From the NCBI GenBank assembly GCA_035506195.1, contig DATJPV010000025.1:22494-86493 (forward strand): a DNA stretch of 64,000 bases, read 5' to 3'. The notes beneath the pieces were generated by a model. The model saw nothing but the letters and a program-made list of their open reading frames with translations, was not told where the DNA came from and did not search any database. Source of the stretch: Patescibacteria group bacterium (GTDB lineage Bacteria > Omnitrophota > Gorgyraeia > Gygaellales > Profunditerraquicolaceae). Position 1 is the first letter of the stretch, and each line of letters begins with the position of its first letter. Shown piece by piece: positions 46,130 through 59,577 of the stretch. Position numbers and translations under genes: made by a program.

Positions 46130-46202
46130 ATAACCCTCCGCAACGTGATCATATTATTGTAATGCTTTGCAAGGGGCAAGTCAAGACGAAACAAAGGGCC
46201 GG

Positions 46203-48185
46203 CTAGACCCGGATAGGCAGGATGACGAAGGGGATGCCTTGCCGGTATAATAACTTCTGCAAGGCGAATACCGTGTAGTTATGGAACAGGGGCGACAAAA
46301 GCGATTCTTTTTCAAAAACGAGCTGGCCTCCGAAAAAAACGGAATTCGAAAAACGCCGCATGATCTCGGGAGTGATCGCGACCACCCCGTCAACCACGTC
46401 TACTCCGAGCGCAGAGACTCCTTCGGCATAATACCCCTGCCGCTGCATAAAGCTTACGTAATGGCCCAGGTCCCGCTGCACGTGGCTCTTCAGGTTCTCG
46501 ATCTCCTCTGCCCCCTTAAAATTACCGGCATCGATCATGCCTATTTCCAGAAAGACGAAATTCTTGAAGGAGCCTCCGAACAGCCTTATAACGCCGAAAA
46601 GCGTATGCAGCCCCATTCCGTTAAAGCCGCTTACCAGCAGCACGGCGGTCTTCCCTTTGGGGTCGAACTCCGCGGGCTTCTGCGGCCCCTTAAAGGCGGT
46701 CTCCTGGGACTCCGTAGTTTTGACGAGGCCGCCCAGCCGGCGTAATTGTTTTGCGATCTTGTAGTAGTGCCGCTTGGTCAGGATAGCCAGGACGACCAGT
46801 GTCGCGGTGATGAAGAGCGTGATCCAGCCGCCTTCGTGGAATTTCATGACCACCATCGAAATGAGTATGAAAGAGCTTAAAAGCAGCCCCACCCCGTTGA
46901 TGCATATCTTCCTGGCCCATTTTTTTATTTTACCCCGGGACTCCCACCAATGGCGTACCATGCCGGCCTGAGACAACACGAACGTAATGAACACGTTGAT
47001 ACTGTAGAGGACGACGAGAAACCGTACCGAGGCGCGGCTTAAGATCATCAACAGCGCCGACAGGCCTCCCATGATCAATATCCCCTTCTGGATCACCAGC
47101 CTGTCGCTTAAGCTGGAAAATCCGACCGGGAACCACCGGTCTACCGCCATGTTCGCCAACACCCTCGGCCCGTCAAGGAATCCGGTCTGCGCAGCCACAA
47201 AAAGAAGCGTCGCTTCCGAAATGAGCGTCACCAGGATGAAGGCGGAGCCGAACTTTCCCCAGCCCTGCGCCACCTGTTCAAGGAGGGTCGCGTTGAGCGT
47301 CTTTCCCGGCTGCGCGCCTACCGCATAGAATATGTAGGCGACCATCAGGCCCATGACGACAAAAGACAGAGAAACGGCCATATAACGCATGGTGCGCTTG
47401 GCTGTCTCTACCTTCGGCTCCCTCAACACCGGGATACCGTTACTGACAGCCTCCAGGCCCGTATAGGTCCCGGCGCCCATACTGTAAGAACGCAGCAACA
47501 GGAAGAGCATACCGACGACGCCAACCTGAGAGACGGTCCCCCGTATATCGGCTTTCGTCGCGGCGGCTATGTCCGGCAAACTGGGTATGTGCCCGAAAAA
47601 AGCGAAACAGATTACAAGGAAGTGCGTCAGCAGAAAAATGAGGAAGATCGGCACCAAGGGCAGCACCGACTCCCTGACGCCTCTCATGTTCAATACGATG
47701 AGGACCAGCACCACCAGCACGGCAAACGCAAGCCGGTAAGGATACCAGTGCGCGGGGAGGAAGCTGAATATGGCGTCTGCGCCGCTGGCAATAGAAACGG
47801 TAATGGTCAATACGTAATCAATGAGCAGCGCGCAACCCGATATCATCCCCACGGTAGGCGACAGCAATTTGCTGGCAACAAGATAGCCTCCTCCTCCGTG
47901 CGGGAAAAGCTCGACGATCTGCGAATAGCTGGCGCTGATGATAAAAATCGTAATGACGGCGCCCAGCGCGACAAAGAGGCTTAAGTAAATATGGGTGCCC
48001 AAGGCCAGAAAGGCCTCTTGAGGGCCGTAGCAGGAAGAGGACAGGCCGTCGGAACCCAGGCCGATCCAGGCAAAAAATGCTATCAGGGACAACTTATGGA
48101 AGATGTGCTTGTCTGCCGGATCGCGGGGCTTGCCGATGACCAGGCCTTTGAACCGCCGGGATAAGGAAGGGCCTCTACTCTTCAT
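46203..48185 (-). CDS. APC-superfamily amino acid/polyamine permease with extended C-terminal domain
   Basis: ORF to 48236; the start is more likely MKSRGP at 48185. 12 TM helices followed by a ~200-aa soluble C-terminal region. Confidence 0.65.
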   Translation of the reverse strand: MKSRGPSLSRRFKGLVIGKPRDPADKHIFHKLSLIAFFAWIGLGSDGLSSSCYGPQEAFLALGTHIYLSLFVALGAVITIFIISASYSQIVELFPHGGGGYLVASKLLSPTVGMISGCALLIDYVLTITVSIASGADAIFSFLPAHWYPYRLAFAVLVVLVLIVLNMRGVRESVLPLVPIFLIFLLTHFLVICFAFFGHIPSLPDIAAATKADIRGTVSQVGVVGMLFLLLRSYSMGAGTYTGLEAVSNGIPVLREPKVETAKRTMRYMAVSLSFVVMGLMVAYIFYAVGAQPGKTLNATLLEQVAQGWGKFGSAFILVTLISEATLLFVAAQTGFLDGPRVLANMAVDRWFPVGFSSLSDRLVIQKGILIMGGLSALLMILSRASVRFLVVLYSINVFITFVLSQAGMVRHWWESRGKIKKWARKICINGVGLLLSSFILISMVVMKFHEGGWITLFITATLVVLAILTKRHYYKIAKQLRRLGGLVKTTESQETAFKGPQKPAEFDPKGKTAVLLVSGFNGMGLHTLFGVIRLFGGSFKNFVFLEIGMIDAGNFKGAEEIENLKSHVQRDLGHYVSFMQRQGYYAEGVSALGVDVVDGVVAITPEIMRRFSNSVFFGGQLVFEKESLLSPLFHNYTVFALQKLLYRQGIPFVILPIRV

Positions 48186-48582
48186 TAGTCGAGGCCAGAT
48201 TGACGTTCTTGATCCCCAGCTCGTTGAGCGCATCAAGCGCTTCGACTATGTCTTTGAACCTGACGAACTTGTCGGCGCGCAGGATGATGATGAGCGCGGG
48301 GTTATCTCTGTACAGCAGGCGTATCTTGTGTTTCATCTCTTTTCTGGTAACGACTGCGTTGTCCAGATACATGACGCCTTCATTGGTTATGGTGATGGAG
48401 GCCTGAACCACGTCTTCGATGGGCTTAGCGCTCCTTGTTTCGGGAAGGCTGACCCTGATACTGGATTGGAATATCAGGGGCGTGGCGATCATGAATATGG
48501 TCAAAAGCACCAGGATCACGTCGGTAAAAGGCGTTATGTTTATTTCCGCCATTACCCGCTGTTTTCTGTCTCTTCTGTTCAT
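48175..48582 (-). CDS. exbD: ExbD/TolR biopolymer transport protein
   Basis: 135 aa with one N-terminal TM helix (INITPFTDVILVLLTIFMI) and a periplasmic domain. Confidence 0.8.
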   Translation of the reverse strand: MNRRDRKQRVMAEINITPFTDVILVLLTIFMIATPLIFQSSIRVSLPETRSAKPIEDVVQASITITNEGVMYLDNAVVTRKEMKHKIRLLYRDNPALIIILRADKFVRFKDIVEALDALNELGIKNVNLASTNEE

Positions 48583-49208
48583 TTTTGTTTACTCGTTAAG
48601 AGGTCGTTCACCTCGGAGGCGCACAGCTCCATATCGGTGACAAAGTTGTCTATCTTTTTGACGAAGTAGTTATACGCAATGACCGCGGGAACGGCCACAA
48701 GCAGGCCTGCCGCGGTGCAGATCAGGGCTTCGGATATGCCGCTGATAACGATATTGATCCCGGCGGCCCGGTTTACCGAAATATCGCGGAAGGCCCGGAT
48801 GATGCCCAGTACCGTGCCGAAGAGCCCGACGTAGACGGCAGTGCTGCCGATGGTGCCGACGATGCTGGTATACCGCTCAAGCTTGGTGGTCTCGATGGCG
48901 ATTGCCCGCTCCATGGCGTTGGAGATCGCTTTTTCATTCTGGCCGGAATGGATGATCCCCGCAGAAGCCACCGAGGCAAAAGGCGCATCGGTATTCTGGC
49001 ATATCTCGGAGGCCTTTTTGGTATTGCCTTTTTCCAGCTCCTTCTTCAGCTCCTCCAGGAATTCCGCTCTTTTTGCCTTTGCTTTCTTGCGGTAATAAAT
49101 AAACCGCTCCAGAAAAATGGTAAACGAAAAGATCGAACAGATCAAAAGGATATACATAGTAAACCCGCCGGCCTGAACCATCTGCCAAAGCGTTCTTTCG
49201 CTAAGCAT
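48579..49208 (-). CDS. exbB: MotA/TolQ/ExbB proton-channel protein
   Basis: 209 aa, 3 TM helices, with a conserved ExbB C-terminal region (TAVYVGLFGTVLGIIRAF). Confidence 0.8.
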   Translation of the reverse strand: MLSERTLWQMVQAGGFTMYILLICSIFSFTIFLERFIYYRKKAKAKRAEFLEELKKELEKGNTKKASEICQNTDAPFASVASAGIIHSGQNEKAISNAMERAIAIETTKLERYTSIVGTIGSTAVYVGLFGTVLGIIRAFRDISVNRAAGINIVISGISEALICTAAGLLVAVPAVIAYNYFVKKIDNFVTDMELCASEVNDLLTSKQK

Positions 49209-49788
49209 CTTGCGCCTCCCTCTTAGAAAAGGTCCGTGTCAACTTGAAAGCCGCAACGCACAACAACAGAAAACCGATGACCAGCACCGTAGGCTTTGTG
49301 TACTTTACGATGGTAGTCCCGAACATGGCTAACAGATAGATCCTCGGCACAACCCCGATCAGCGTGCAGACGACAAAGGGGACCAGGGGCAGATTGGTGA
49401 TGCCGGCGGCAATGGAAAATACCTTAAAAGGTATGATGGGTAATATCCTGCCGATAAGCACGCCCCAGACGCCGTGTTTCCTGGCAAACGCCTCTGCCTT
49501 GTAAATATGGTGGGGTTTTATCAGTATGAACTTGCCGAACTTCAATATCACCGGCAGCGCCGCATACCTGCCCAGAAAGTAGCCGGCGAGGCCGCCGAGG
49601 GTCGAGCCCAGCGCGCCGAATACGACGATCGAAGCCAAAGGTATGCCGATCGCGCCCGCGCCGACGACGATCACCTCCGAAGGCAAAGGGATGATACTTG
49701 ACTCAAGGAACATGGCCAGGAACACCCCGAAGTCGCCGAACCGCTTAATCGTTTCTATCGCGTCGCTCTGCAGGACCTGTTCAAACAT
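49201..49788 (-). CDS. DedA/SNARE-associated (TVP38) family membrane protein
   Basis: ORF to 49884; the likely start is MFEQVLQ at 49788. DedA motif FLESSIIPLPSE...GALGSTLGGLAGYFLGRY. Confidence 0.75.
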   Translation of the reverse strand: MFEQVLQSDAIETIKRFGDFGVFLAMFLESSIIPLPSEVIVVGAGAIGIPLASIVVFGALGSTLGGLAGYFLGRYAALPVILKFGKFILIKPHHIYKAEAFARKHGVWGVLIGRILPIIPFKVFSIAAGITNLPLVPFVVCTLIGVVPRIYLLAMFGTTIVKYTKPTVLVIGFLLLCVAAFKLTRTFSKREAQDA

Positions 49789-50296
49789 CGGTTTTTGTTG
49801 TCCTCCCCAGGATCGAGCCGATCGCCGCACAGACGGCTCCGGCCGACCTTTCCACTTCCGGAGAAAAACGGCTCCCGAAGGCAAGCGTCTTGGGCTGGAT
49901 GCCGATAATGGTTATCGCGCACCCGATGGATTTAACCAGGTAATCGGCCAATATATTAAGAGGCAGGCTGTGCGTACAGGAAGAAAACCCGTCGATCCGG
50001 TCGGCAGGTATCAGCTTAACCGCGCCCGCCTCTGCGTTCATGTCGGCGGCATCGATGATGATCAACTGGCCCGGCTTGAATTTTTTGATCTGGCCGGTAA
50101 CATTTTCCGGGGCGGTAGCTCCGATAAAGACCTTGAATTTCTGCCGGCCCCTGCTACCGCGGAAATCCGCGGCCAGCCTCTTGGCGACCAGGATCCCGGC
50201 GGCATCGTCCCCGCGCAGCTCGGAACCGACTCCCAAGAGCGCGATCCTCTGCGCCCGGCTAAGCTGTTTCTTTAGGCTTGTCTTCAGGCTTTCCAC
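49781..50296 (-). CDS. hycI: [NiFe]-hydrogenase maturation endopeptidase (HycI/HybD family)
   Basis: ALLGVGSELRGDDAAG and IIDAAD motifs. 171 aa. It overlaps the ferredoxin-subunit gene by 38 nt, so the real start may be a non-ATG codon downstream. Confidence 0.75.
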   Translation of the reverse strand: MESLKTSLKKQLSRAQRIALLGVGSELRGDDAAGILVAKRLAADFRGSRGRQKFKVFIGATAPENVTGQIKKFKPGQLIIIDAADMNAEAGAVKLIPADRIDGFSSCTHSLPLNILADYLVKSIGCAITIIGIQPKTLAFGSRFSPEVERSAGAVCAAIGSILGRTTKTDV

Positions 50297-50639
50297 CGAA
50301 AACCACCTTCAATTGAGTCACATCCGTTTGCGCCAGCTCTACATCCTTAGTAAGCTCAAGGGCCTTCTTGAGGCAGGAGTCCACGCACTGGCCGCAATAG
50401 ATGCACCTTCCCAGGTGTATGACCGCTTCGAACTGCTTTGGGGCCGTTTCGTTGATGGTTATCGCGCCTGCAGGGCAATCCCGCATGCACAGCTTGCAGC
50501 CGATGCATTTCTGCGGGTCGAATACGAGCTTGCCCCTGATCTTTCCCGGCATCTCCAGCTTCTCATAAGGATACATATTCGTCGCCGGTTTCTTAAAAAG
50601 GGAATGCAGCACCTGACTGAGCATCCTGCCGGGGTTCAT
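50259..50639 (-). CDS. energy-converting hydrogenase 2x[4Fe-4S] ferredoxin subunit (NuoI/EchF/MbhN-like)
   Basis: Two CxxCxxCxxxCP motifs (CIGCKLCMRDCP and CIYCGQCVDSC). Confidence 0.8.
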   Translation of the reverse strand: MNPGRMLSQVLHSLFKKPATNMYPYEKLEMPGKIRGKLVFDPQKCIGCKLCMRDCPAGAITINETAPKQFEAVIHLGRCIYCGQCVDSCLKKALELTKDVELAQTDVTQLKVVFGGKPEDKPKETA

Positions 50640-51577
50640 CGCAATACTATCCCTTTCGCAAACAGGTTTATGAGAAGTTGCAGCAGTGCCAGCGGCACCA
50701 TGTATTTCCAGCAGAACCTGATCATCTGGTCGATGCGCAGGCGCGCAAATATCGTACGCAGCAGAGAAATGAGGCTAATGATGAAGAATACTTCCGCGAT
50801 GAAAATGACGAACCTGGCAAGCGGGCCCAGGCCCAAGCCGACCGGCATGAATACCGCCGCCAGCAGAGCAGCCCCGGCGACCATTTCGATGCAGAGCGTC
50901 AATCTGAAGAAGGCCAGGAACCTTCCGCTGTATTCCGTAAAGACGCCGGCAACGACCTCGGTTTCTGCCTCGGGTATATCGAAAGGCACCTTTTCCAACT
51001 TTCCCATAAGCGAGATCAACGAAACCGCAAAACCGATGATATTGAGCAGCCAGAAGAACGGCCTGTTGTTATAAAAAACCGTGATCCCGTACAGCGACCA
51101 GGTATCTGCCAGAAGCGCCGAAGACAGGATCCCCATGAACAGGGGGATCTCGTAAGCGAATAGCTGGGTTATCGCGCGCACGGAGCCGATCCTGGCGAAC
51201 AGCGACGTGGAATACCACCCTCCGATGAAGAACGTCATGGTAGGCAAGGTCAACAGGTACAGCACCACGATGATATCGCCGTTAAAAGAAAACAGCGCCT
51301 CGGTGTTCCAGAGCGGGATATACAAAAAAGCGGTTGCGGCGGAAGCCAGGGCGAATACCGGGGCAAGACAGAACATCGTTGCGTTGGCGTCTTTAGGGAT
51401 AACCTCTTCCTTAGCCAGCAGCTTGATAAAGTCCGCCAGGGGCTGGAACCAGGGAGGGCCGACCCTGTTCTGCAGGCGCGCATGCAATTTTCTGTCGAAA
51501 AAATCCGCAACAAGGCTGAGCGCGCTTACGAAAAGGAAACCCGGAAAGATCAGGATCGAGAATAGCGACTTTACCAT
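50636..51577 (-). CDS. energy-converting hydrogenase membrane subunit (NuoH/EchB/MbhM-like)
   Basis: 313 aa, 8 TM helices, NuoH-family conserved loop (RLQNRVGPPWFQPLADFIKL). Confidence 0.8.
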   Translation of the reverse strand: MVKSLFSILIFPGFLFVSALSLVADFFDRKLHARLQNRVGPPWFQPLADFIKLLAKEEVIPKDANATMFCLAPVFALASAATAFLYIPLWNTEALFSFNGDIIVVLYLLTLPTMTFFIGGWYSTSLFARIGSVRAITQLFAYEIPLFMGILSSALLADTWSLYGITVFYNNRPFFWLLNIIGFAVSLISLMGKLEKVPFDIPEAETEVVAGVFTEYSGRFLAFFRLTLCIEMVAGAALLAAVFMPVGLGLGPLARFVIFIAEVFFIISLISLLRTIFARLRIDQMIRFCWKYMVPLALLQLLINLFAKGIVLR

Positions 51578-51578
51578 C

Positions 51579-53259: not shown

Positions 53260-53705
53260 TTTTTTCCTCCTCCTGCCGCCTCAAGGCTCGCCAGAAGCTT
53301 TACCGCGCCGTCGATTATCGCCTTGGGACTGGCAGGGCATCCGGGTATATACGCCGATACGGGGATGACCGCATTGATCCCTCCCCGTATATTGTAACAG
53401 CCGTTGAACACCCCGCCCGTGCACGCACAGGTGCCGACGGCAATAACGAACCGCGGCTCCGCCATCTGTTCGTATATCCTCTTGAGCCGGCATTCGATCT
53501 GCCGGGTAACCGGCCCGGAACAGACCAGTATATCCGCATGCCGGGGTGTGCCCTTGAGCTGCACGCCGAACCGCTCCAGGTCATAGCGGGGAGTAAGGGC
53601 AGCGATGATCTCGATATCGCAGGCATTGCATGCGCCGGTATTGAAATGCAGGATCCAGGGTGATTTTATTCTTGACCAGTTTACGATTCTAGTGATTACG
53701 CCCAT
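53238..53705 (-). CDS. group-4 [NiFe]-hydrogenase small subunit (NuoB/EchC/MbhJ-like)
   Basis: Proximal-cluster cysteines (GACNACDIE, GTCACTGG, IPGCPA). Confidence 0.85.
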   Translation of the reverse strand: MGVITRIVNWSRIKSPWILHFNTGACNACDIEIIAALTPRYDLERFGVQLKGTPRHADILVCSGPVTRQIECRLKRIYEQMAEPRFVIAVGTCACTGGVFNGCYNIRGGINAVIPVSAYIPGCPASPKAIIDGAVKLLASLEAAGGGKKCPQKKT

Positions 53706-53711
53706 ACAAAG

Positions 53712-54044
53712 TTAACTCCTCAATAAGACATGCAGGCCGATGACCGCGCCGATGATATACAGGATCGCCAGGATAAACGTCTGGCTGGTTTGCACGGGAA
53801 CGGTATTCATGATCAGGGTGGCAACGTGCGCTATGGTAAAGAAAAAAGCAAAAGGGAAAAACGTGCTGTAGTCAGGCTGCGCCATATGGTCATAGTTGTC
53901 TTCCCCGCAGGCGTAGGACTTGCCTTCTCCCTCGGTATGCTTGCCGGGACGAAAGGAAAGCTTGGCGCACAGGCGCGAAAACAAAAAAGATGCCAGGAGT
54001 ATGATGATAAACGCCACCGGCGGGGAAAGCAGCCAATTCTCCAT
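53712..54044 (-). CDS. NuoA-like small membrane subunit
   Basis: 110 aa, 3 TM helices, with a YACGE motif similar to the NuoA YECGF. Confidence 0.55.
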   Translation of the reverse strand: MENWLLSPPVAFIIILLASFLFSRLCAKLSFRPGKHTEGEGKSYACGEDNYDHMAQPDYSTFFPFAFFFTIAHVATLIMNTVPVQTSQTFILAILYIIGAVIGLHVLLRS

Positions 54045-54054
54045 ATTCTTTCTT

Positions 54055-54375
54055 TTATCCTTTCAGGTTTCGTATTCTTCTGGTATCGAGGGACTCGTTG
54101 TAGCTGCGGATCCCCAGGACAACGCCGACCGCAACCGTCATCACGACGACCTCGATGACGATAAGGGTTATCACCAGCGCCTGCGCCAGCGCCGCATGAT
54201 ACGTTACGTATCCGACGGTAACCAACAGCAGCGTCACCGCCTTGAACAGCAGCTCAAGGCCGATAAGCGCCCGTATCAGGTTGCGCGTGACCAGCACGCA
54301 ATATAAGCCGACCACGGAGAGCATGATAATGAAAAGGCTAAACGGCCACAGTACCCCCAAGACCCCGTTACTCAC
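54055..54375 (-). CDS. MrpC/NuoK-like antiporter subunit
   Basis: The only in-frame ATG (MLSVVGLYCV, 54324) would truncate the N-terminus. A GTG at 54375 overlaps the upstream stop (GTGA) and gives ~106 aa with 3 TM helices, as in MnhC. Confidence 0.6.
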   Translation of the reverse strand: MSNGVLGVLWPFSLFIIMLSVVGLYCVLVTRNLIRALIGLELLFKAVTLLLVTVGYVTYHAALAQALVITLIVIEVVVMTVAVGVVLGIRSYNESLDTRRIRNLKG

Positions 54376-54860
54376 TTCTTCACCCTCTCCTTGAACAGTA
54401 TGACCACGCCGAATACGCCGGTCAAAAGTACGATGATCTGGCCCATGACATCGACCTGCCTTAGGCTCCATAAGACATTGCGCGCCTCTTTTACCGCTTC
54501 GGGGGCAGGCAGGTCTATGGGCGGCTTTATTTTCAGCAGGCTTAAGATAACCCCTAACGCGATGAGTAAGAACGGCAGGAACCAGAACCTGGCACGCCGC
54601 TCTCTCATGTGCGCAAGTATCTCCTTGCGGGTCAGCGGATGCGTAAGGCTGATGGTACTGATGAACAACACCGAGATCAACCCGGTACATACCGACAGCT
54701 CAAAGACCGCCGCCAGAGAGGAATCCAGTCTGATCATGAGTATGGTCAATATCGCGCTGGTGAGGGCAAGCCCTATGGCCGAACGCAATAAGCTTCGCGT
54801 CAACACTGTCCAGAGCGAAGCTGCAAGCAGGCTCAAAAGGATGGCTATATTGACCGACAC
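54372..54860 (-). CDS. MrpB/MnhB-like antiporter subunit
   Basis: 162 aa, 4 TM helices, MnhB-domain-like. Confidence 0.6.
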   Translation of the reverse strand: MSVNIAILLSLLAASLWTVLTRSLLRSAIGLALTSAILTILMIRLDSSLAAVFELSVCTGLISVLFISTISLTHPLTRKEILAHMRERRARFWFLPFLLIALGVILSLLKIKPPIDLPAPEAVKEARNVLWSLRQVDVMGQIIVLLTGVFGVVILFKERVKK

Positions 54861-54861
54861 G

Positions 54862-56286
54862 TTATCCCCCCAGTAAGTTGCCTTTTAAAAGGATGCTCAC
54901 AAAAGGAAAGAGCAACCCTACGCCGACCGTGATCACCGCCAGGATGAGCGCCGGAAGCATCAGGACGGGCCCGGCCTCCTCGATCTCAGCCATGTCCTGG
55001 CCTAGCTTCCCGAAGAAGATCTTTCTTTGCATGGTAAGAAGATACGCAAGCGTCAGGAGGCTTGCCAATACCGCCAACATCGCATACGCATAATGCCCCG
55101 AGGCCCACAGGGCGATGACGATGATCAATTTACTCCAAAAGCCTGCCAGGGGCGGTATCCCTGCGCAGGACAGGCTTGCCAGGACCGAAGTAAAGCCTGT
55201 CACCGGCATTCTTTTCGCCAGGCCCGATAGCTTATCCATCTGCACCGTCCCCGTCTCCAGCTCCACGGCCGCGGAGTCGACGAACAAAAGCGATTTAAAG
55301 ACCGCGTGGTTGAATACATGGAAAATCGCGCCGGCCAGGCCCAGCGGCGTAGCGGCCCCCAGGCCCAGCACGATGTAGCCTACCTGACTTATGCTGGAAT
55401 ACGCAAGCATGCGTTTAAGGTCGCGCTGCCCCAGGGCTGCCAGAGCCCCTGCGATCATCGAAACCGCCCCCAGCGCAAGCAGCAGATGCTGCAGGGAGCG
55501 GTCAAGCACGAATACCGAATTCACTATGCGTATCAGCGTATATACGCCGACGGTCTTTGTCGCAATCCCGGCTAAAAGCACCGATACCGATGTGGGCGCC
55601 GCAGAATAGACGTCGGGAAGCCAGCCGTGAAACGGCATGAGCCCCGCTTTAATGAAACAGGCACACAGGAAAATGCCGACCGCCAGGCTGATCAACAACC
55701 TGTGCGGGGACAGCCTCACGGTGGAGGCGATCGCCGAAAAGCTCGTATCTCCCGCAAGCAGCAGTATTATGGCGATCGACGAAAGCATCAACGCGGTAGC
55801 GATAACCGAAAGGATTATATATTTGAAAGCCGCCTCGAACGCATCCAGGTCCTGGTTGAACCCGATGAGGATAAAAGAGCTGACCGCGGTAATCTCCAGG
55901 AATACGTACAGCGAAAAGATATCCCTGACCATGACAATGCCGTTCATGCCGACCAAAATTATCAGCAGCATGTTCACGAAATTGAATATCCGTTCCTTGT
56001 CGCCGAGGATGGACTTCTGCACCAAGAGCGTCACGCACAGGATAAGGGCTATCGAAAACAAAAGCACGCGGCTGAGGTTATCCGCCGTAAAATCCAATTT
56101 AAAGAGCGTCTTGAAGATGTCGAAAAAGCTGCAGCCGGGAAAAATCGCAGAGAATACGACCAGGCACATCTGCGCAAGCAGCAACACAAGGCAGGCCCAA
56201 AAGGCCGCCTTTTTCATGGTGGTCCTGAACGGCAGATTCAGGATTATCACGCTAAAAAACGGTATCAGGATCAAGTACGCGTACAT
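54862..56286 (-). CDS. NuoL/M/N-family proton-translocating antiporter-like subunit (MrpD-like)
   Basis: 474 aa, 14 TM helices, conserved complex-I antiporter core (MPFHGWLPDVYSAAPT, SQVGYI). Confidence 0.8.
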   Translation of the reverse strand: MYAYLILIPFFSVIILNLPFRTTMKKAAFWACLVLLLAQMCLVVFSAIFPGCSFFDIFKTLFKLDFTADNLSRVLLFSIALILCVTLLVQKSILGDKERIFNFVNMLLIILVGMNGIVMVRDIFSLYVFLEITAVSSFILIGFNQDLDAFEAAFKYIILSVIATALMLSSIAIILLLAGDTSFSAIASTVRLSPHRLLISLAVGIFLCACFIKAGLMPFHGWLPDVYSAAPTSVSVLLAGIATKTVGVYTLIRIVNSVFVLDRSLQHLLLALGAVSMIAGALAALGQRDLKRMLAYSSISQVGYIVLGLGAATPLGLAGAIFHVFNHAVFKSLLFVDSAAVELETGTVQMDKLSGLAKRMPVTGFTSVLASLSCAGIPPLAGFWSKLIIVIALWASGHYAYAMLAVLASLLTLAYLLTMQRKIFFGKLGQDMAEIEEAGPVLMLPALILAVITVGVGLLFPFVSILLKGNLLGG

Positions 56287-56293
56287 TGCGCTC

Positions 56294-58132
56294 CTACCTC
56301 GAACAAATCAAAAAGATCGTGACGACTATCAGCCCGATCAAAGACCAGCTTAAGTAAGTAGAATAATTTCCCGTATGCCATCTGCGGATGCGATGGCTCA
56401 AGGCAGCGGCCAGGTTAACCGTGAATCCGTCATACAGCCAGTCTATCGCCCTGTCGCACCAGAAGACGGCGCCTGCGACGTAGCCTGCTACTTTCAAACC
56501 TATATCATAAGGGTCGAAGAATCTTTTCTCGGCCTTTGCGTAGATCCCGGACAAGACGGGGGCGTAGTGGATATGGTCGGTGGCCTTCAGGGCGCTGCCC
56601 TTCTTTTTGGCCGCCCAAAGATGGCTCGCCAGGGCCGCAGCCAGCACGATCAGGGTGATTACCACAAGCAGCGTATTCTCCGGCAGGCCGGCGAAATCAT
56701 GGCCCTGCAGCCTGTACGGGCCGACGATGGGCTGGATAAGGGCGCGTAAAGGCAGATGATTGTATACGCCGAACAGGATGCATAAAAAGGCAATGCCCAG
56801 CATCGGCAGGAGCATGGAAAACGGTGCTTCTTTGACCTGTTTATTTTTTTCCTCTATTTTTCCCAGGAAGGCCGCATGCCCGAGCTTTAAGAATGATAGC
56901 GCGGTGAAAAACGACCCCAGGGCCGCAGCGCCGTAAAAGACCCAACCCCTCTGCAGCGCGCCGTCATACACAAGCTCTTTCGAGAAAAAGCCGTTTAAGG
57001 GAGGAACCCCGGAGATGGCAACTGCGCTTACGATAAAGCAGGCGAACGTCACCGGCATCCGGCTGCCGATACCGCCCAGCGCTGCCAGCTCGGTCGTGCC
57101 CGCCTGTTTTTCTACGGCGCCGCCGGTAAGGAACAGGCAGCTCTTGTAGAGCGCGTGGTTGATCATGTGGAACAGGCCGCCCACTATCCCCGCCGGGACT
57201 GCCGTGCCGATACCCAGGATCATATACCCCACCTGGCTGACGGCATGGTAAGACAATAACCGCTTATAATCCTTTTGGATCAATGCCATCATGACGGCAA
57301 AGAGTATGGTTACGGCTCCGACGGCCATCAGCAGGATGCTGACCGGCGAATCGGCTCCCAGGGCAAACATGTCCAGAGAGATCCTCGCCAATAGGTATAT
57401 CCCCAGGAGTTTTTCCAGTGCCGCAGGCACCAGGGCCATAAAAGGCAGAGGCGCATCAACCGCAGCGTCGGGGATCCAGCTGTGGAAGGGCATGGCGCCG
57501 GCCTTGGAGATCGCCCCGATCATCAACAGAATGAACCCCAGGCTCCCCCAGCCGTCCAGAGAAAGGTGTATCCGGGACATCTCCAGCGTCCCGGCAAGGC
57601 TGCCCGTCAGCGCCACCCCCAGCATCAGGCACAGGTCGGTAATGCCCACGATAACGAATGCCTTGGTGGCGGTCTTAAACGCAGCCTTGCTGGCGATGGC
57701 GATCATGCCGAAAAGGGCCAGAAGCAGCCCCTCCCAGAAGAAAAGCATCACTACTAAATTATCCGCAAGGACTGCGCCGCTGGTAAAAGAAACGTTCAAT
57801 AATAAATACGCGTAAAATTGCTTAAGGCAGGGCCTCTGCCGCATGAAGACGGTAGAATATAAGGCGATCAGGAACCCGAAGCCGGCAACGGCAAGAATGA
57901 TGAAGGCGCTAAAGTGGTATAACCTAAGCGAAAACTCAAGGCCCCAGCCAAGCCAGGGCAAGGAGAAAACGAGTTCCTTTTTGAACAGCCCGGCGGTCAG
58001 GGCCAGCTGCAACAGGACAGCTGTCAGGGCCAGGCCTTCGGTGATCGCCCGGAACCTCCGGGGAACCAACAGGACCAATACCCCGGCAAAGAAAGGAAGA
58101 AGTATGGGTAAAAGCAAGGTCATATCCGTCAT
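56294..58132 (-). CDS. NuoL-family antiporter-like subunit (MrpA-like)
   Basis: ORF to 58459, but the likely start is MTDMTLLL at 58132, where an ATGA overlap with the upstream stop occurs. 613 aa with MPFHSWIPDAAVDAP and SQVGYM motifs and a long C-terminal extension typical of NuoL/MrpA. Confidence 0.8.
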   Translation of the reverse strand: MTDMTLLLPILLPFFAGVLVLLVPRRFRAITEGLALTAVLLQLALTAGLFKKELVFSLPWLGWGLEFSLRLYHFSAFIILAVAGFGFLIALYSTVFMRQRPCLKQFYAYLLLNVSFTSGAVLADNLVVMLFFWEGLLLALFGMIAIASKAAFKTATKAFVIVGITDLCLMLGVALTGSLAGTLEMSRIHLSLDGWGSLGFILLMIGAISKAGAMPFHSWIPDAAVDAPLPFMALVPAALEKLLGIYLLARISLDMFALGADSPVSILLMAVGAVTILFAVMMALIQKDYKRLLSYHAVSQVGYMILGIGTAVPAGIVGGLFHMINHALYKSCLFLTGGAVEKQAGTTELAALGGIGSRMPVTFACFIVSAVAISGVPPLNGFFSKELVYDGALQRGWVFYGAAALGSFFTALSFLKLGHAAFLGKIEEKNKQVKEAPFSMLLPMLGIAFLCILFGVYNHLPLRALIQPIVGPYRLQGHDFAGLPENTLLVVITLIVLAAALASHLWAAKKKGSALKATDHIHYAPVLSGIYAKAEKRFFDPYDIGLKVAGYVAGAVFWCDRAIDWLYDGFTVNLAAALSHRIRRWHTGNYSTYLSWSLIGLIVVTIFLICSR

Positions 58133-59577
58133 CGAGCCATCCCCAGCATGCCTGCGGTGACTGCCTGAGCAAATCCGGCAGGATAATTGATAAAGATCCC
58201 GCTCAAGAGCGAAAGCAGGGCCAACAGGGCCACGCTTGCCACCATCACGGGGCTGGACTCTTTCGGCCAGGGAGCCTGCGCCTGGCCGAGGAATACCAGA
58301 TTGAATACCCTGAACAGATACAGGATCGTCAAGAACGCGCAGAGCAGGAACGCAAAACTGATCCAGAGCTGCCCTGCTTCGATCGCTCCGGCAAAGACCA
58401 GATATTTGCTGAAGAACCCTCCGAACGGCGGTATCCCCATGACGGAAAACGCACAGCACAAAAACGATACCGCGGTTACCGGCATGGTAGTAATGAGCCC
58501 GCCGAGCTTGGTGATGTCCCTGATCTTGGTGTTCTGCTCGATGATCCCTGCGCAGAGGAACAGCCCTGCCTTGGCGATACCGTGCATGAGTATGTACAAC
58601 AGGCCTCCGGCAACCGCCATGAGGTTACCTACGGCCAAGCCGAAGAAAATGAAACCTATCTGGCTGATCGTAGAATAGGCGATGAGCCGTTTCAAGTCTG
58701 TTTCTACCAGCGCCGCTCCCGCGGAAACGATTGCGCTGGCCAGCGCGATGACCGGCACCGCCGTATGCCAGAAAGCGGCAACCGGGAATGTGACGACAAA
58801 AAGCCGGGCGAACACATACACGCCTATCTTAACCAGGATCGCGGCGTGCAGCAACGCGGTGACCGGAGAAGGCGCCACGCCGGCATCAGGCAGCCAGGTA
58901 TGAAAGGGCAGGGTTGCGGACTTGGAGAATATGCCGACCAGGATCAACAGGACCGTAAGGCCGGTCAGAGAACCTCCCTTAAGGCTTGCCTTTATGGCGG
59001 AAAATTCAAACGAGCCGGCCTGCTGGTAGATAATGATGAACCCGATAAGCATGGCCAGGGCGCCGAAAACGGTGACCAGGAATGCCTTGTCGGCCTTCAA
59101 CACATACTCCTTCTCCCGGAAAAACCCGATCAAGCGCCAGCTGGTTATCGCGGTGATCTCCCAGAATATATACAATAGGATCAGGTGCGCGGCAAAGATC
59201 AGCCCCATCATCGCGCCGATGAACAGGGTTACCATGGAATAATACTCATTCTGGTTTTCGTAATGGCTGATATAGCCGAAGGAATACAGCACGATTATCG
59301 CGCTGATCAAAGAGGAGACGCAGGCCATGAATACCGCAAGGCCGTCCGCAAGGAAGACAAGGCTTATCCCGGGTACAAGCGGTATGTTGACCGGGATCGC
59401 TTCATTGCGCAATACGGGCGCGATCATCCGCAGGGAAGCGGCAAAAGGAACGAGGATAAAGCCTAACGCCAGCGCATTCCTGAGCCGTAAGGAGACCCTG
59501 CCTGCCAGGGGAAGGATACATGCCCCTGCAAGCGGCACGAACACCGCGCTCAACAGCAACAGATCATATCTGACCAT
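58129..59577 (-). CDS. NuoL/M/N-family antiporter-like subunit (MrpD-like), first gene of the hydrogenase operon
   Basis: 482 aa with LPFHTWLPDAGVAPSPV and SQIGFIF motifs. An AAGG Shine-Dalgarno lies 8 nt upstream. Confidence 0.8.
   Translation of the reverse strand: MVRYDLLLLSAVFVPLAGACILPLAGRVSLRLRNALALGFILVPFAASLRMIAPVLRNEAIPVNIPLVPGISLVFLADGLAVFMACVSSLISAIIVLYSFGYISHYENQNEYYSMVTLFIGAMMGLIFAAHLILLYIFWEITAITSWRLIGFFREKEYVLKADKAFLVTVFGALAMLIGFIIIYQQAGSFEFSAIKASLKGGSLTGLTVLLILVGIFSKSATLPFHTWLPDAGVAPSPVTALLHAAILVKIGVYVFARLFVVTFPVAAFWHTAVPVIALASAIVSAGAALVETDLKRLIAYSTISQIGFIFFGLAVGNLMAVAGGLLYILMHGIAKAGLFLCAGIIEQNTKIRDITKLGGLITTMPVTAVSFLCCAFSVMGIPPFGGFFSKYLVFAGAIEAGQLWISFAFLLCAFLTILYLFRVFNLVFLGQAQAPWPKESSPVMVASVALLALLSLLSGIFINYPAGFAQAVTAGMLGMAR

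What the first reader, a model, noticed from the sequence alone, without database searches (positions are those of the whole stretch)
46203..59577. Group-4 energy-converting [NiFe]-hydrogenase with a three-antiporter Mrp module, co-transcribed with DedA, ExbB, ExbD and an APC permease
Twelve contiguous genes make up this unit. They encode three NuoL/M/N-like antiporter subunits, MrpB-like, MrpC-like and NuoA-like proteins, and a small subunit with proximal-cluster cysteines. They also encode a NuoC-like protein and a large subunit that keeps both Ni-binding motifs (RVCGICSHSH and DPCFSCTDR). NuoH-like and NuoI-like subunits and the HycI-type protease complete the set.

Three antiporter-like subunits are more than the single one in Pyrococcus-type Mbh. 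The number resembles Hyf/Mrp-Mbh hybrids. No formate dehydrogenase, CO dehydrogenase or hyp genes are in the window, so the electron donor is unknown. The operon continues without gaps, with overlapping codons, into a DedA membrane protein, ExbB, ExbD and an APC permease. This suggests that ion-motive-force consumers (TonB energisation, amino acid uptake) are wired transcriptionally to the H2-evolving or H2-consuming ion pump.
Basis: partly seen in the sequence, partly recalled or inferred. Interest (0 to 1): 0.6.

Follow-up and report, generated by a model that had tools for sequence, protein, structure and literature searches.

The report
Complex-I-like membrane hydrogenase operon
This is an operon for a membrane-bound nickel-iron hydrogenase built like a small respiratory complex I, which most likely couples ferredoxin oxidation and hydrogen gas formation to an ion gradient; the enzyme group is widespread and already reported in these bacteria (Omnitrophota) but has never been tested biochemically, so this is a refined annotation and not a discovery.

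Summary
Window 46203-59577 (minus strand) carries 16 tightly packed genes, with gaps of -38 to +10 nt.

The first 12 encode a group-4 [NiFe]-hydrogenase. Both Ni-binding motifs are intact, and the large subunit has a conserved 47-aa C-terminal tail matched by a HycI-type protease.

Two labels need correcting:
- The "Mrp module" is a complete homologue set of the complex I membrane arm. It has NuoA/H/J/K-like subunits and three antiporter-like subunits, one a full-length NuoL with the lateral helix. There is no MrpE/F/G.
- The "APC permease" is a KimA-type K+ transporter, not an amino-acid permease.

The 12-gene order is the same in all 80 related species loci examined that are long enough to show it, from Omnitrophota, Planctomycetota and other phyla. 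One of them is Ca. Velamenicoccus archaeovorus, whose membrane hydrogenase is published as HydDB group 4g.

The DedA-ExbB-ExbD-KimA tail is not conserved as such. However, 37 of 67 loci have some ion-gradient machine next to the operon: membrane pyrophosphatase, F1Fo ATP synthase, ExbBD, KimA or a P-type ATPase, in shuffled orders. Gene overlap is the rule throughout this genome, so it is weak evidence of functional wiring.

Verdict: a new member of a known, uncharacterised kind. Moderate interest.

The parts
59651..59678 (-). Best sigma-70-like promoter of the region (TTGACA-16-TATATT with an extended TG), upstream of ant1
   Evidence: 11 of 12 matches, the top hit in 45000-61000. Sequence read. 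This is a consensus match only.
59599..59622 (-). Leader hairpin with an A-tract before it and a U-tract after it, between the promoter and the ant1 start. It is either the terminator of the upstream genes or an attenuator.
   Evidence: -22.7 kcal/mol, z -4.1. Terminator-like hairpins lie within 160 nt upstream of ant1 in 16 of 63 related loci, about ten of them with similar stems. The motif is not specific to this operon.
58129..59577 (-). Antiporter-like subunit 1 (482 aa), MrpA/NuoL class, without a C-terminal extension
   Evidence: Pfam Proton_antipo_M 8e-74 plus Proton_antipo_N. Best PDB hits MrpA (209 bits) and Nqo12 (197 bits). E140, K219, H244 and K336 are invariant in 60 orthologues.
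56294..58132 (-). Antiporter-like subunit 2 (612 aa), full-length NuoL type with TM15, a lateral helix and TM16
   Evidence: The NCBIfam NuoL model matches over positions 5-611 of 615. Best PDB hits are NuoL of Thermus and Mycobacterium. The AF2 model (pLDDT 84) has helices 487-511, 515-585 and 590-610. Foldseek top hit is 8e9g_L, TM-score 0.80 over the full length.
54862..56286 (-). Antiporter-like subunit 3 (474 aa), MrpD/NuoN/MbhH class
   Evidence: Pfam 2.8e-69. Best PDB hits MbhH (202 bits), MrpD (192 bits) and MbsH (181 bits). E131, K213, K244 and K331 are invariant.
54372..54860 (-).
   Evidence: Pfam Oxidored_q3, 34.0 bits against a cut-off of 33.2. Weak NCBIfam DUF4040 hit. PDB hits MbsD 0.0098, NuoJ 0.15 and MbhD 0.18.
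54055..54375 (-). NuoK/MrpC-like membrane subunit (106 aa, GTG start)
   Evidence: Pfam Oxidored_q2 6.8e-17, 61 bits. NCBIfam MrpC and NuoK models match, all below their cut-offs.
53712..54044 (-). NuoA/ND3/MbhI-like membrane subunit (110 aa); the assignment is weak
   Evidence: Pfam Oxidored_q4, 22.1 bits against a cut-off of 23.3. A profile of 21 orthologues hits ND3 at E 0.011 and MbhI at 0.78.
53238..53705 (-). NuoB-like hydrogenase small subunit (155 aa) with a CxxC...C...C(P) cluster site
   Evidence: Pfam Oxidored_q6 2e-30. NCBIfam NuoB subfamily models are passed (151 bits against 116). Cysteines read.
52804..53259 (-). NuoC-like subunit (151 aa), not fused to the large subunit
   Evidence: Pfam Complex1_30kDa 3e-23.
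51579..52811 (-). [NiFe] large subunit (410 aa): L1 motif RVCGICSHSH, L2 motif DPCFSCTDR, then a conserved 47-aa C-terminal extension
   Evidence: Pfam Complex1_49kDa plus NiFeSe_Hases. PDB hits MbhL 318 bits and HycE 276 bits; the tail aligns with the HycE tail. C67, C70, C357 and C360 are invariant. A 100% identical protein exists in a public MAG.
50636..51577 (-). NuoH-like membrane subunit (313 aa)
   Evidence: Pfam NADHdh 2e-75.
50259..50639 (-). NuoI-like 2x[4Fe-4S] subunit (126 aa), the presumed ferredoxin docking and entry point
   Evidence: Pfam Fer4 families. NCBIfam NuoI and HycF-type models match, below their cut-offs. The donor role is inferred.
49781..50296 (-). HycI-type maturation endopeptidase (171 aa)
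   Evidence: Pfam HycI 1e-12. NCBIfam TIGR00142 hycI, 131.4 bits against a cut-off of 119.1. It is the 12th gene in nearly all relatives.
49201..49788 (-). DedA/VTT-domain membrane protein (195 aa)
   Evidence: Pfam VTT_dom 2.8e-20. Best NCBIfam hit is UptA, far below its cut-off. An 8-nt overlap with HycI.
48579..49208 (-). ExbB/TolQ-family proton-channel subunit (209 aa)
   Evidence: Pfam MotA_ExbB 1.6e-32. NCBIfam TolQ 140 bits and ExbB 109 bits, both below their cut-offs.
48175..48582 (-). ExbD/TolR-family subunit (135 aa)
   Evidence: Pfam ExbD 1e-25. NCBIfam TolR 87 bits and ExbD 74 bits, below their cut-offs.
46203..48185 (-). KimA-family K+ transporter (660 aa; APC fold plus a C-terminal cytoplasmic part)
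   Evidence: PDB 6s3k KimA, E 9e-66 over residues 30-500. D36, Y43, D117, T121, S125, T230 and E233 of KimA are matched by identical residues in the printed alignment. Pfam AA_permease_2 5.6e-23.
46196..46210 (-). Weak terminator-like hairpin overlapping the stop codon at the end of the last gene
   Evidence: 5 pairs, followed by TTTGTTTCGT. A 73-nt gap and a promoter-like site (46184-46156) come before the next gene.

Best explanation
The unit encodes an 11-subunit, complex-I-like, ion-translocating group-4 [NiFe]-hydrogenase plus its own HycI-type maturation protease.

Steps shown by sequence or structure evidence:
- The large subunit keeps all four Ni/Fe-ligating cysteines. It carries a conserved C-terminal tail of the kind that HycI removes after metal insertion.
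- The small subunit has a hydrogenase-type CxxC cluster site.
- A NuoI-like subunit carries two [4Fe-4S] motifs.
- The membrane arm holds NuoH-, NuoA-, NuoJ- and NuoK-like subunits and three antiporter-like subunits.
- All three antiporter-like subunits keep an invariant Glu, Lys, Lys/His and Lys that I place, from memory of the NuoL/M/N motifs, at the TM5, TM7, TM8 and TM12 channel positions.
- One antiporter-like subunit has the NuoL-type lateral helix and C-terminal anchor helix.

Steps inferred:
- Reduced ferredoxin docks on the NuoI-like subunit.
- Electrons pass through three [4Fe-4S] clusters to the NiFe site, where protons are reduced to H2.
- The redox step drives H+ (or Na+) translocation through the membrane arm, as in MBH and complex I.
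- The reaction is probably reversible.

In this genome the 12 genes are very probably co-transcribed with DedA, an ExbB/ExbD-type stator pair and a KimA-type K+/H+ symporter. That tail is one local permutation of a looser pattern. In relatives the operon often sits beside other ion-gradient machines, namely membrane pyrophosphatase, F1Fo ATP synthase, ExbBD, KimA or a P-type ATPase. This fits a role in membrane energisation. It does not show a dedicated functional link to TonB transport or K+ uptake.
For: - Domain and family assignments for all 16 genes.
- The large subunit is closest to MbhL and HycE among solved structures.
- Ni ligands and the tail are invariant or conserved in 37 relatives.
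- HycI passes the NCBIfam equivalog cut-off.
- NuoL-type fold of ant2L: sequence, AF2 model, Foldseek.
- Classes of the other two antiporter-like subunits.
- Conserved channel residues in about 60 orthologues each.
- The same 12-gene order in every one of the 80 species-level loci that is long enough to show it.
- The orthologous enzyme of Ca. Velamenicoccus archaeovorus (L016, 75% identity, same order) is reported as HydDB group 4g (PMC10066038). Other Omnitrophota likewise (PMC8542988).
- Contiguity and overlaps of the 16 genes, the upstream promoter-like site and the hairpin after the last gene.
- Recurrent neighbours, verified by Pfam.
- KimA identity.
- A TonB-dependent receptor lies in the same window.
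Against: - No biochemical data exist for any member of this clade. Donor, direction, coupling ion and stoichiometry are all inferred.
- The NuoA-like assignment is just below Pfam's cut-off.
- The arrangement of the three antiporter-like subunits in the complex was not modelled.
- Energetics (my calculation from standard potentials): ferredoxin to H+ yields roughly 10-40 kJ per H2, enough for about 1-3 ions. It is therefore not obvious why four complex-I-like ion paths are kept.
- None of the 80 related loci has the DedA-ExbB-ExbD-KimA tail.
- Tight packing is genome-wide, so co-transcription need not mean functional coupling.
- No transcript data were available.
Confidence: 0.75

Rival explanations
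1. The enzyme works physiologically in the uptake direction. It would use the ion-motive force, through its many ion paths, to push electrons from H2 uphill onto ferredoxin, as Eha/Ehb and Ech do in methanogens. This would supply reduced ferredoxin for Wood-Ljungdahl or other reductive reactions.
For: - Three intact antiporter-like subunits plus the NuoH/A/J/K path give more ion paths than ferredoxin-to-H2 chemistry can energise at normal ion-motive force (my calculation). A high ion-to-electron ratio makes sense for a reverse, force-driven reaction.
- Many Omnitrophota that carry this enzyme are predicted acetogens with partial or complete Wood-Ljungdahl pathways (PMC10066038).
- The operon often neighbours ATP synthase and pyrophosphatase, which could generate the gradient.
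Against: - The closest characterised relatives, MBH and FHL, evolve H2 (established knowledge).
- Published genome interpretations assume H2 evolution for redox balance.
- Nothing in the window bears on direction.
- The two directions are not exclusive for a reversible enzyme.
Confidence: 0.25
2. It is a Pyrococcus-type, Mrp-linked Mbh (HydDB group 4d). In that enzyme a proton gradient made by the hydrogenase module is exchanged for Na+ by an attached Mrp antiporter module. This is the reading of the first reader and of the published Omnitrophota genome papers.
For: - MbhL is the best solved match of the large subunit.
- MbhH is the best match of ant3.
- The gene order NuoA-like, B, C, D, H, I equals mbhI-N (the mbh order is from my knowledge).
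- Papers describe the enzyme as 'Mrp-linked'.
Against: - No MrpE/F/G (MbhA-C) homologues were found, and there is no spare coding space in the operon.
- There are three antiporter-like subunits instead of one.
- One subunit has a full NuoL-type C-terminal extension, reported absent from the structurally characterised membrane-bound hydrogenases (PMC11291895).
- HydDB calls the orthologue 4g, not 4d.
Confidence: 0.1
3. It is a formate hydrogenlyase of the Hyf (hydrogenase-4) type that oxidises formate. The formate dehydrogenase would be encoded elsewhere.
For: - It has three antiporter-like subunits, as Hyf does (PMC3144371).
- The C-terminal tail and the HycI protease resemble HycE/HycI.
- Some Omnitrophota lack formate dehydrogenase in the Wood-Ljungdahl pathway and may handle formate.
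Against: - No FdhF, HycB or HyfA-type gene lies in the window or among the recurrent neighbours in 80 loci.
- NuoC and NuoD are separate genes, not fused as in HycE/HyfG (the fusion is from my knowledge).
- The antiporter-like subunits score higher against NuoL and MrpA models than against HyfB and HyfD models.
Confidence: 0.05
4. The four downstream genes (DedA, ExbB, ExbD, KimA) are passengers. They sit in the transcript only because this small genome packs genes end to end, and they have no functional relation to the hydrogenase.
For: - The tail is absent from all 80 related loci.
- Outside the finding, 17 of 28 same-strand neighbour pairs in the window lie 20 nt or less apart and 11 overlap. 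These include unrelated pairs such as glutamate dehydrogenase with a glycosyltransferase.
- In relatives where ExbBD lies upstream, a terminator-like hairpin separates it from ant1.
Against: - ExbBD (9 loci), KimA (4), DedA (3), pyrophosphatase (23), ATP synthase (14) and P-type ATPase (5) recur next to the operon in different orders and on both sides.
- That is 37 of 67 loci with usable flanks. This is far more than expected for single-copy genes within about 10 kb (my estimate).
- The loci are phylogenetically related, so the counts are not independent events.
Confidence: 0.45
5. It is an 11-subunit complex I (a ferredoxin- or unknown-donor:quinone oxidoreductase) and not a hydrogenase, as many automatic annotations ('NADH-quinone oxidoreductase subunit D/L') imply.
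For: - All 11 core Nuo homologues are present.
- The best NCBIfam hits of several subunits are Nuo models.
- Public annotations use Nuo names.
Against: - All four Ni/Fe cysteine ligands are invariant.
- A HycI protease gene and a cleavable-type tail are conserved.
- The small subunit has CxxC, not the tandem CC of NuoB (motif knowledge is mine).
- The large subunit scores higher against MbhL and HycE than against any NuoD.
Confidence: 0.03

Closest known systems
Pyrococcus furiosus membrane-bound hydrogenase MBH (HydDB group 4d; PDB 6CFW)
   Same: - Ferredoxin-type input module with NuoB/C/D/H/I homologues.
- The large subunit is the best solved match (318 bits).
- ant3 is most similar to MbhH.
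- The small membrane subunits resemble MbhD, MbhG and MbhI.
- The order of the six genes from the NuoA-like one to the NuoI-like one is the same.
   Different: - No MbhA-C (MrpE/F/G).
- Three antiporter-like subunits instead of one.
- One of them carries a full NuoL-type lateral helix.
- NuoJ-like is one 162-aa protein rather than the split MbhD/E (the split is from my knowledge).
- The operon carries its own HycI gene.
Complex-I-like group 4 [NiFe]-hydrogenases of Asgard archaea (Valentin-Alvarado et al. 2024, PMC11291895; Appler et al. preprint 10.1101/2024.07.04.601786)
   Same: - A NiFe large subunit sits in a NuoBCDI peripheral arm without NuoEFG.
- The membrane arm is built from Nuo-like subunits.
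- The L-like subunit has a full-length lateral helix, reported absent from the structurally characterised membrane-bound hydrogenases.
- Ferredoxin is the predicted donor and H2 the product.
   Different: - Those complexes are archaeal, and some have fewer antiporter-like subunits than complex I or carry extra modules.
- This clade is bacterial (Omnitrophota, Planctomycetota, Kiritimatiellae, Margulisiibacteriota, Spirochaetota).
- Whether the two are one clade or convergent was not testable here, because I had no Asgard sequences.
Respiratory complex I, 11-subunit core (NuoA-D, H-N), as in NDH-1 and Fpo-type enzymes
   Same: - One homologue of each of the 11 core subunits is present.
- The NuoL-type subunit has the same length and predicted topology as NuoL.
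- An invariant Glu, Lys, Lys/His and Lys in all three antiporter-like subunits, which I map from memory to the complex I channel positions.
- This is the layout that Moparthi and Hagerhall (PMC3144371) postulated for the common ancestor: an 11-subunit enzyme with a NiFe site on NuoD.
   Different: - NuoD keeps the NiFe ligands.
- NuoB has CxxC rather than CC.
- A maturation protease is encoded.
- The gene order differs, with the L/M/N-like, J-like and K-like genes first.
- Two of the three antiporter-like subunits are of the MrpA/NuoL class, against one in complex I.
Escherichia coli hydrogenase-4 (Hyf) and formate hydrogenlyase (HydDB group 4a; PDB 7Z0S for Hyc)
   Same: - Hyf also has three antiporter-like subunits.
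- The large subunit has a C-terminal tail removed by HycI, and the tail sequences align.
   Different: - No formate dehydrogenase or HycB/HyfA partners.
- NuoC and NuoD are not fused.
- NuoA- and NuoJ-like subunits are present.
- The gene order differs.
- Similarity to HycE is lower than to MbhL.
HydDB group 4g (ferredoxin-coupled, putative), for example Ech2 of Thermoanaerobacter kivui
   Same: This is the label given in the literature to the Omnitrophota orthologues. It is an uncharacterised catch-all class, presumed to be ferredoxin-coupled.
   Different: Group 4g is polyphyletic (PMC13582414). The 4g members discussed there have compact Ech2-like clusters, not a three-antiporter complex-I-like arm. 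The label therefore says little about this architecture.
Bacillus subtilis KimA K+/H+ symporter (PDB 6S3K)
   Same: The last gene of the unit aligns with KimA over the whole transmembrane domain (E 9e-66). It has identical residues at the positions I recall as the K+ site.
   Different: About 50 residues longer. The C-terminal cytoplasmic part was not aligned. Transport was not tested.

Membership tests
Group 4 (energy-converting) [NiFe]-hydrogenase | Large subunit with an N-terminal RxCGxCxxxH motif and a C-terminal DPCxxCxxR/H motif (four Ni/Fe cysteine ligands) | tested here: met
   RVCGICSHSH and DPCFSCTDR. C67, C70, C357 and C360 are invariant in 37 relatives.
Group 4 (energy-converting) [NiFe]-hydrogenase | Large subunit closer to known group-4 large subunits than to NuoD or to group 1-3 enzymes | tested here: met
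   PDB: MbhL 318 bits, HycE 276, best NuoD 215. Group 1-3 NCBIfam models score 63 bits or less. No tree was built.
Group 4 (energy-converting) [NiFe]-hydrogenase | Short NuoB-like small subunit with one [4Fe-4S] site, plus NuoH-like and NuoI-like partners | tested here: met
   Cysteines read.
Group 4 (energy-converting) [NiFe]-hydrogenase | H2 turnover coupled to ion translocation | not testable with these tools
   Needs biochemistry.
HydDB group 4g | Assignment by the HydDB classifier | not testable with these tools
   HydDB is not available here. The orthologue in Ca. V. archaeovorus (L016, 75% identity, same 12-gene order) is reported as 4g.
Mrp-linked Mbh (HydDB group 4d) | MrpE/F/G-like subunits (MbhA-C) in the complex | tested here: not met
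   No such Pfam or NCBIfam hits among the 16 genes, and no spare ORF space.
Mrp-linked Mbh (HydDB group 4d) | A single MrpD-like antiporter subunit | tested here: not met
   Three antiporter-like subunits in every complete locus.
Formate hydrogenlyase / Hyf (group 4a) | Associated formate dehydrogenase and HycB/HyfA-type Fe-S subunit | tested here: not met
   Absent from the window and from the recurrent flanks of 80 loci. The rest of the genome was not seen.
Formate hydrogenlyase / Hyf (group 4a) | Fused NuoC-NuoD large subunit | tested here: not met
   Separate 151-aa and 410-aa genes.
Formate hydrogenlyase / Hyf (group 4a) | C-terminal extension of the large subunit, and a HycI endopeptidase | tested here: met
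   A 47-aa conserved tail that aligns with the HycE tail. HycI scores above the equivalog cut-off.
Respiratory complex I (11-subunit core) | Homologues of NuoA, B, C, D, H, I, J, K, L, M and N | tested here: inconclusive
   Ten are clear. NuoA-like is just below Pfam's cut-off, and its profile hits ND3 only at E 0.011.
Respiratory complex I (11-subunit core) | NuoL with a C-terminal TM15, lateral helix HL and TM16 | tested here: met
Respiratory complex I (11-subunit core) | NuoD without Ni ligands (a quinone site), and NuoB with tandem cysteines | tested here: not met
   Ni ligands are present and invariant. The small subunit has CxxC.
TonB-ExbB-ExbD energising system | ExbB (MotA/TolQ/ExbB) and ExbD domains as an adjacent pair | tested here: met
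   Pfam 1.6e-32 and 1.1e-25. The ExbB versus TolQ subfamily is unresolved, since all NCBIfam models score below their cut-offs.
TonB-ExbB-ExbD energising system | TonB (or TolA) partner encoded alongside | tested here: not met
   None in the unit or elsewhere in the window. A TonB-dependent receptor lies at 5117-7096.
KimA K+ transporter family | Homology to KimA over the APC-fold domain, with conserved K+-site residues | tested here: met
   6s3k, E 9e-66. D36, Y43, D117, T121, S125, T230 and E233 are identical in the alignment. Which residues form the site is from my memory of the KimA structure paper.

The most novel reading that the evidence does not exclude
This widespread bacterial clade may be a living example of the enzyme that Moparthi and Hagerhall postulated as the common ancestor of complex I and membrane hydrogenases: an 11-subunit 'NiFe complex I' with a fully differentiated L/M/N-type membrane arm. 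Ferredoxin/H2 chemistry cannot energise four ion paths at normal membrane potential. The enzyme would therefore either run with an unusual, possibly variable, ion-to-electron ratio, or act mainly as a gradient-driven H2:ferredoxin oxidoreductase. Its frequent placement beside ATP synthase, pyrophosphatase, ExbBD and KimA would then mark a co-inherited membrane-energy gene island in Omnitrophota and their neighbours.
Probability: 0.2. Interest if true: 0.65.

Novelty: new member of a known kind. Interest (0 to 1): 0.35.

Why it matters
If the architecture is as inferred, this clade offers a bacterial model for how a low-energy redox reaction (ferredoxin to H2) is coupled to a long, complex-I-type ion-pumping arm. 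It occurs in over 500 species-level genomes and in an enrichment-cultured organism, Ca. Velamenicoccus archaeovorus.

That question bears on two topics: the evolution of complex I from hydrogenases, and the long-standing puzzle of why Hyf-like enzymes keep three antiporter-like subunits.

For genome annotation there are three practical points:
- These operons are hydrogenases, not 'NADH dehydrogenases'.
- Their membrane arm is not an Mrp antiporter.
- The neighbouring 'amino-acid permease' is a K+ transporter.

The neighbourhood pattern (pyrophosphatase, ATP synthase, ExbBD, KimA) supports a role in membrane energisation in ultra-small, mostly fermentative or acetogenic bacteria.

Tried and rejected
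1. Mrp module. I looked for MrpE/F/G and MrpB homologues. None was found; the 'MrpB-like' gene is NuoJ/MbhD-like.
2. Amino-acid permease. Rejected in favour of KimA.
3. Partner dehydrogenase or hyp genes. The long ORFs of the window were scanned with Pfam and none was found. The flanks of 80 related loci were clustered, and no recurrent redox partner or hyp cluster appeared.
4. The DUF362/2x[4Fe-4S] gene just downstream (45056-46129) as a conserved partner. It occurs in this locus only.
5. Riboswitch in the operon leader. An Rfam scan of the whole window found only a cobalamin riboswitch elsewhere.
6. Leader hairpin as a shared regulatory motif of a 'bioenergetic regulon'. Similar hairpins precede ant1 in about ten related loci and HppA in one. 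The sequence is therefore a common terminator-like motif, and the regulon idea is not supported.
7. TonB in the window. The ORF at 9765-10469 is not TonB-like and is probably not coding.
8. Single-sequence PDB search for the NuoA-like protein found nothing. A profile of orthologues gave only weak ND3 and MbhI hits.
9. No phylogeny against HydDB reference sets or Asgard sequences could be built, because reference sequences were not retrievable with the tools. Best-hit scores against PDB chains and NCBIfam models were used instead.

Full report
**What is in the sequence**

On the minus strand between 59577 and 46203 there are 16 open reading frames with junctions of -38 to +10 nt. A 108-nt gap precedes the first gene. 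It holds the best sigma-70-like site of the region (TTGACA-16-TATATT, 59678-59651) and a strong hairpin (59599-59622; -22.7 kcal/mol, z -4.1). A 73-nt gap with a weak terminator-like hairpin follows the last gene, and then comes a promoter-like site for the next gene, a DUF362/ferredoxin protein.

**Gene identities**

Pfam and NCBIfam give the following:
- Three Proton_antipo_M proteins of 482, 612 and 474 aa.
- A NuoJ-like protein (Oxidored_q3, 34.0 bits against a cut-off of 33.2).
- A NuoK/MrpC-like protein (61 bits).
- A NuoA-like protein (22.1 bits against 23.3, so just below the cut-off).
- NuoB-, NuoC-, NuoD/NiFe-, NuoH- and NuoI-like proteins.
- A HycI endopeptidase (TIGR00142, 131 bits against 119).
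- A DedA/VTT protein, ExbB/TolQ, ExbD/TolR, and an APC-fold permease.

The large subunit reads RVCGICSHSH and DPCFSCTDR, followed by 47 further residues. One exception is the 'MrpB-like' gene, which is NuoJ/MbhD/MbsD-like. The other is the permease (see below).

**The hydrogenase module**

Among solved structures the large subunit is closest to MbhL of Pyrococcus (318 bits) and HycE of E. coli (276 bits). All NuoD chains score 215 bits or less. The tail beyond the L2 motif aligns with the tail of HycE. From established knowledge, HycI cleaves that tail after the arginine of DPCxxCxxR once the NiFe cofactor is inserted.

In 37 relatives of 77-83% identity the four cysteines are invariant and the tail is conserved (W380, L383, Y386, W390 and others). 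The small subunit has the hydrogenase-type CxxC...C...C(P) pattern, not the tandem cysteines of NuoB (sequence; the motif assignment is my knowledge). The enzyme meets every sequence criterion of a group-4 [NiFe]-hydrogenase that I could test.

**The membrane arm**

- ant1 is of the MrpA/NuoL class but has no C-terminal extension (MrpA 209 bits, Nqo12 197 bits).
- ant3 is of the MrpD/NuoN/MbhH class (MbhH 202, MrpD 192, MbsH 181 bits).
- ant2L matches NuoL over its whole length. The NCBIfam NuoL model is covered at positions 5-611 of 615, and Mycobacterium NuoL aligns at residues 67-614.

An AlphaFold2 model of ant2L, built on 50 homologues, has mean pLDDT 84 and pTM 0.82. After the 14-helix core it shows a transmembrane helix (487-511), a run of helices at 515-585 that includes one 45-residue helix, and a final transmembrane helix (590-610). 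This is the TM15, lateral helix, TM16 pattern of NuoL. Foldseek's best match is NuoL of mycobacterial complex I, with TM-score 0.80 over the full length, followed by MrpA and other NuoL chains.

In about 60 orthologues of each of the three proteins a conserved set of charged residues is kept: E140/E134/E131, K219/K210/K213, H244/K241/K244 and K336/K330/K331. I map these to the TM5 Glu, TM7 Lys, TM8 His/Lys and TM12 Lys of NuoL/M/N from memory of those motifs. All three therefore look functional.

There are no MrpE/F/G homologues and there is no room for further genes. Calling the membrane part 'an Mrp module' is misleading. The subunit set is that of the complex I membrane arm.

**Distribution and literature**

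The large subunit has a 100% identical entry from a public MAG and thousands of relatives, most of them labelled Omnitrophota. A scan of one genome per species found 511 related places. The 80 best are labelled Omnitrophota, Phycisphaerae/Sedimentisphaerales and other Planctomycetota, Kiritimatiellae, Margulisiibacteriota and Spirochaetota. Wherever the contig is long enough, they all show the same 12-gene order.

One of the 80 is the closed genome of Ca. Velamenicoccus archaeovorus LiM (75% identity). Seymour et al. 2023 report its membrane hydrogenase as HydDB group 4g (PMC10066038). Williams et al. 2021 describe Omnitrophota 'Group 4g Mbh, Mrp-linked' (PMC8542988). Group 4g is an uncharacterised, polyphyletic catch-all (PMC5037454; PMC13582414).

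Complex-I-like group-4 hydrogenases whose L-like subunit has a full lateral helix have been described from Asgard archaea (PMC11291895; preprint 10.1101/2024.07.04.601786). An 11-subunit NiFe enzyme was postulated in 2011 as the ancestor of complex I (PMC3144371). The kind is therefore known. I did not find this bacterial clade described in these terms, but my literature search was limited to open-access text.

**The downstream genes**

The 660-aa 'APC permease' aligns with the K+/H+ symporter KimA of B. subtilis at E 9e-66 over the whole membrane domain. Residues at KimA positions 36, 43, 117, 121, 125, 230 and 233 are identical. That these residues form the K+ site is from my memory. It is not an amino-acid permease.

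The ExbB/ExbD pair cannot be assigned to the TonB or the Tol system. TolQ and TolR models score slightly higher, and all models score below their cut-offs. No TonB or TolA gene is in the window. The window does hold a TonB-dependent receptor at the end of a cobalamin-riboswitch-controlled B12 uptake and salvage run.

**Is the link to ion-gradient users real?**

I called ORFs in the flanks of all 80 loci, clustered them and identified the recurrent clusters with Pfam. None of the 80 loci has the DedA-ExbB-ExbD-KimA tail. The recurrent neighbours are nevertheless almost all ion-gradient machines:

| Neighbour | Loci |
|---|---|
| Membrane pyrophosphatase (HppA) | 23 |
| F1Fo ATP synthase operon (mostly directly downstream, same strand) | 14 |
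| ExbB/ExbD (five downstream, four upstream) | 9 |
| P-type cation ATPase | 5 |
| KimA | 4 |
| DedA | 3 |

Taken together, 37 of 67 loci with usable flanks have at least one of these. Examples:
- L065: hydrogenase, ExbB, ExbD, HppA, atp.
- L064: ExbB, ExbD, hydrogenase, one other gene, DedA, P-ATPase, atp.
- L024: HppA, hydrogenase, KimA, atp.

For single-copy genes this is far above chance by my rough estimate. The loci are related, however, and the counts are not independent.

Against a specific functional link, tight packing is the rule in this genome. Outside the finding, 17 of 28 same-strand neighbour pairs lie 20 nt or less apart and 11 overlap, including clearly unrelated pairs (the starts are longest-ORF starts, so overlaps may be overstated).

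My reading is that co-transcription of the 16 genes is likely. The operon belongs to a loosely conserved neighbourhood of membrane-energy genes. A dedicated wiring to TonB transport or K+ uptake is not shown.

**Mechanism**

What is shown is the cofactor-binding motifs, the subunit set, the fold of the NuoL-like subunit and the conserved channel residues.

What is inferred from MBH, FHL and complex I is the rest. Reduced ferredoxin would deliver electrons to the NuoI-like subunit. Three [4Fe-4S] clusters would carry them to the NiFe site, where protons are reduced to H2. The reaction would drive ions through the NuoH/A/J/K path and the three antiporter-like subunits.

Taking E0' of H+/H2 as -414 mV (about -300 mV at 10 Pa H2) and ferredoxin as -450 to -500 mV, the reaction yields roughly 10-40 kJ per H2. 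At 150 mV that is about 1-3 ions, whereas complex I has about 80 kJ for four protons (my calculation from standard values). The long arm is therefore not self-evidently useful in the H2-evolving direction. Possible answers are Na+/H+ exchange within the arm (as proposed for MBH), operation at low H2, or gradient-driven H2 uptake. The same puzzle exists for Hyf.

The c subunits of the ATP synthases encoded next to the operon in relatives read GCAFIEALTIY. They lack the Ser/Thr and Gln that I recall from Na+-binding c rings, which hints at H+ coupling. This is weak evidence.

**Verdict**

It is wrong about the Mrp nature of the arm and about the permease, and it is only loosely supported on 'wiring'. 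This is a new member of a known but biochemically untested kind.

Noticed in passing
window 5117-13368 (- strand): A cobalamin riboswitch (13196-13368, Rfam RF00174, 91 bits) heads a B12 uptake and salvage run: periplasmic binding protein, FecCD permease, ABC ATPase, CobT, CobS, and a TonB-dependent receptor at 5117-7096. It shows that the organism uses TonB-dependent uptake.
   Followed up: partly
window 59599-59622 (leader of the operon); related loci L004, L010, L023, L027, L033, L042, L057, L063, L064, L077; L024 upstream of HppA: A terminator-like hairpin with purine-rich and pyrimidine-rich arms (CCAGAGAA...TTCTCTGG, or the flipped TCTTCTGG...CTAGAAGA) plus a U-tract lies 20-190 nt upstream of ant1. 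In the window and in L033 it sits downstream of a promoter-like site. It could be an attenuator. An exact-pattern scan of metagenomes showed that the sequence is common in unrelated contexts: only 1 of 119 stored hits lay next to this hydrogenase.
   Followed up: partly
proteins P0173 and P0194; locus L070: In Margulisiibacteriota the relatives of ant2L are about 1008 aa long. They look like fusions of ant1 and ant2L.
   Followed up: no
loci L004, L017, L024, L029, L031, L038, L042, L046, L060, L064, L065: The F1Fo ATP synthase operons directly downstream of the hydrogenase encode c subunits reading ...GCAFIEALTIY.... They lack the Gln and Ser/Thr ligands that I recall for Na+-binding c rings, which suggests H+ coupling.
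   Followed up: partly
L066 about 18000-21200; L080 about 17100-19800: A second, divergent NuoB/C/D/I-like cluster (25-39% identity to the window proteins) lies a few kb downstream of the hydrogenase operon in two Planctomycetota loci.
   Followed up: no
window 56294-58132: The large subunit has a 100% identical entry in the 5.8-billion-protein collection. The NuoL-like subunit's best hit there is only 71% identical, even though its ORF is intact in the window. The gene may be called differently, or not at all, in the public record.
   Followed up: no
window 45056-46129 (- strand): A DUF362 protein with an inserted 2x[4Fe-4S] ferredoxin domain lies immediately downstream of the unit and has its own promoter-like site. 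It is not found next to the operon in any of the 80 related loci.
   Followed up: partly
window 16082-28513: A dlt-like set (MBOAT acyltransferase, carrier protein, AMP-binding ligase, Orn/DAP-type decarboxylase) lies among large TPR proteins and three B12-binding radical-SAM genes.
   Followed up: no
window 34480-38184 and 39192-42980 (- strand): Two surface-type proteins of about 1250 aa. One has a right-handed beta-helix plus an inverse-autotransporter beta domain. The other has PKD, fn3 and CarboxypepD_reg domains. This is of interest because Omnitrophota are proposed to have attached or predatory lifestyles.
   Followed up: no
window 59686-62122 (- strand): Two adjacent paralogous genes for 'uncharacterised nucleotidyltransferase' (NTP_transf_5) sit directly upstream of the operon, preceded by an ABC exporter. 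They are not conserved neighbours of the operon.
   Followed up: no
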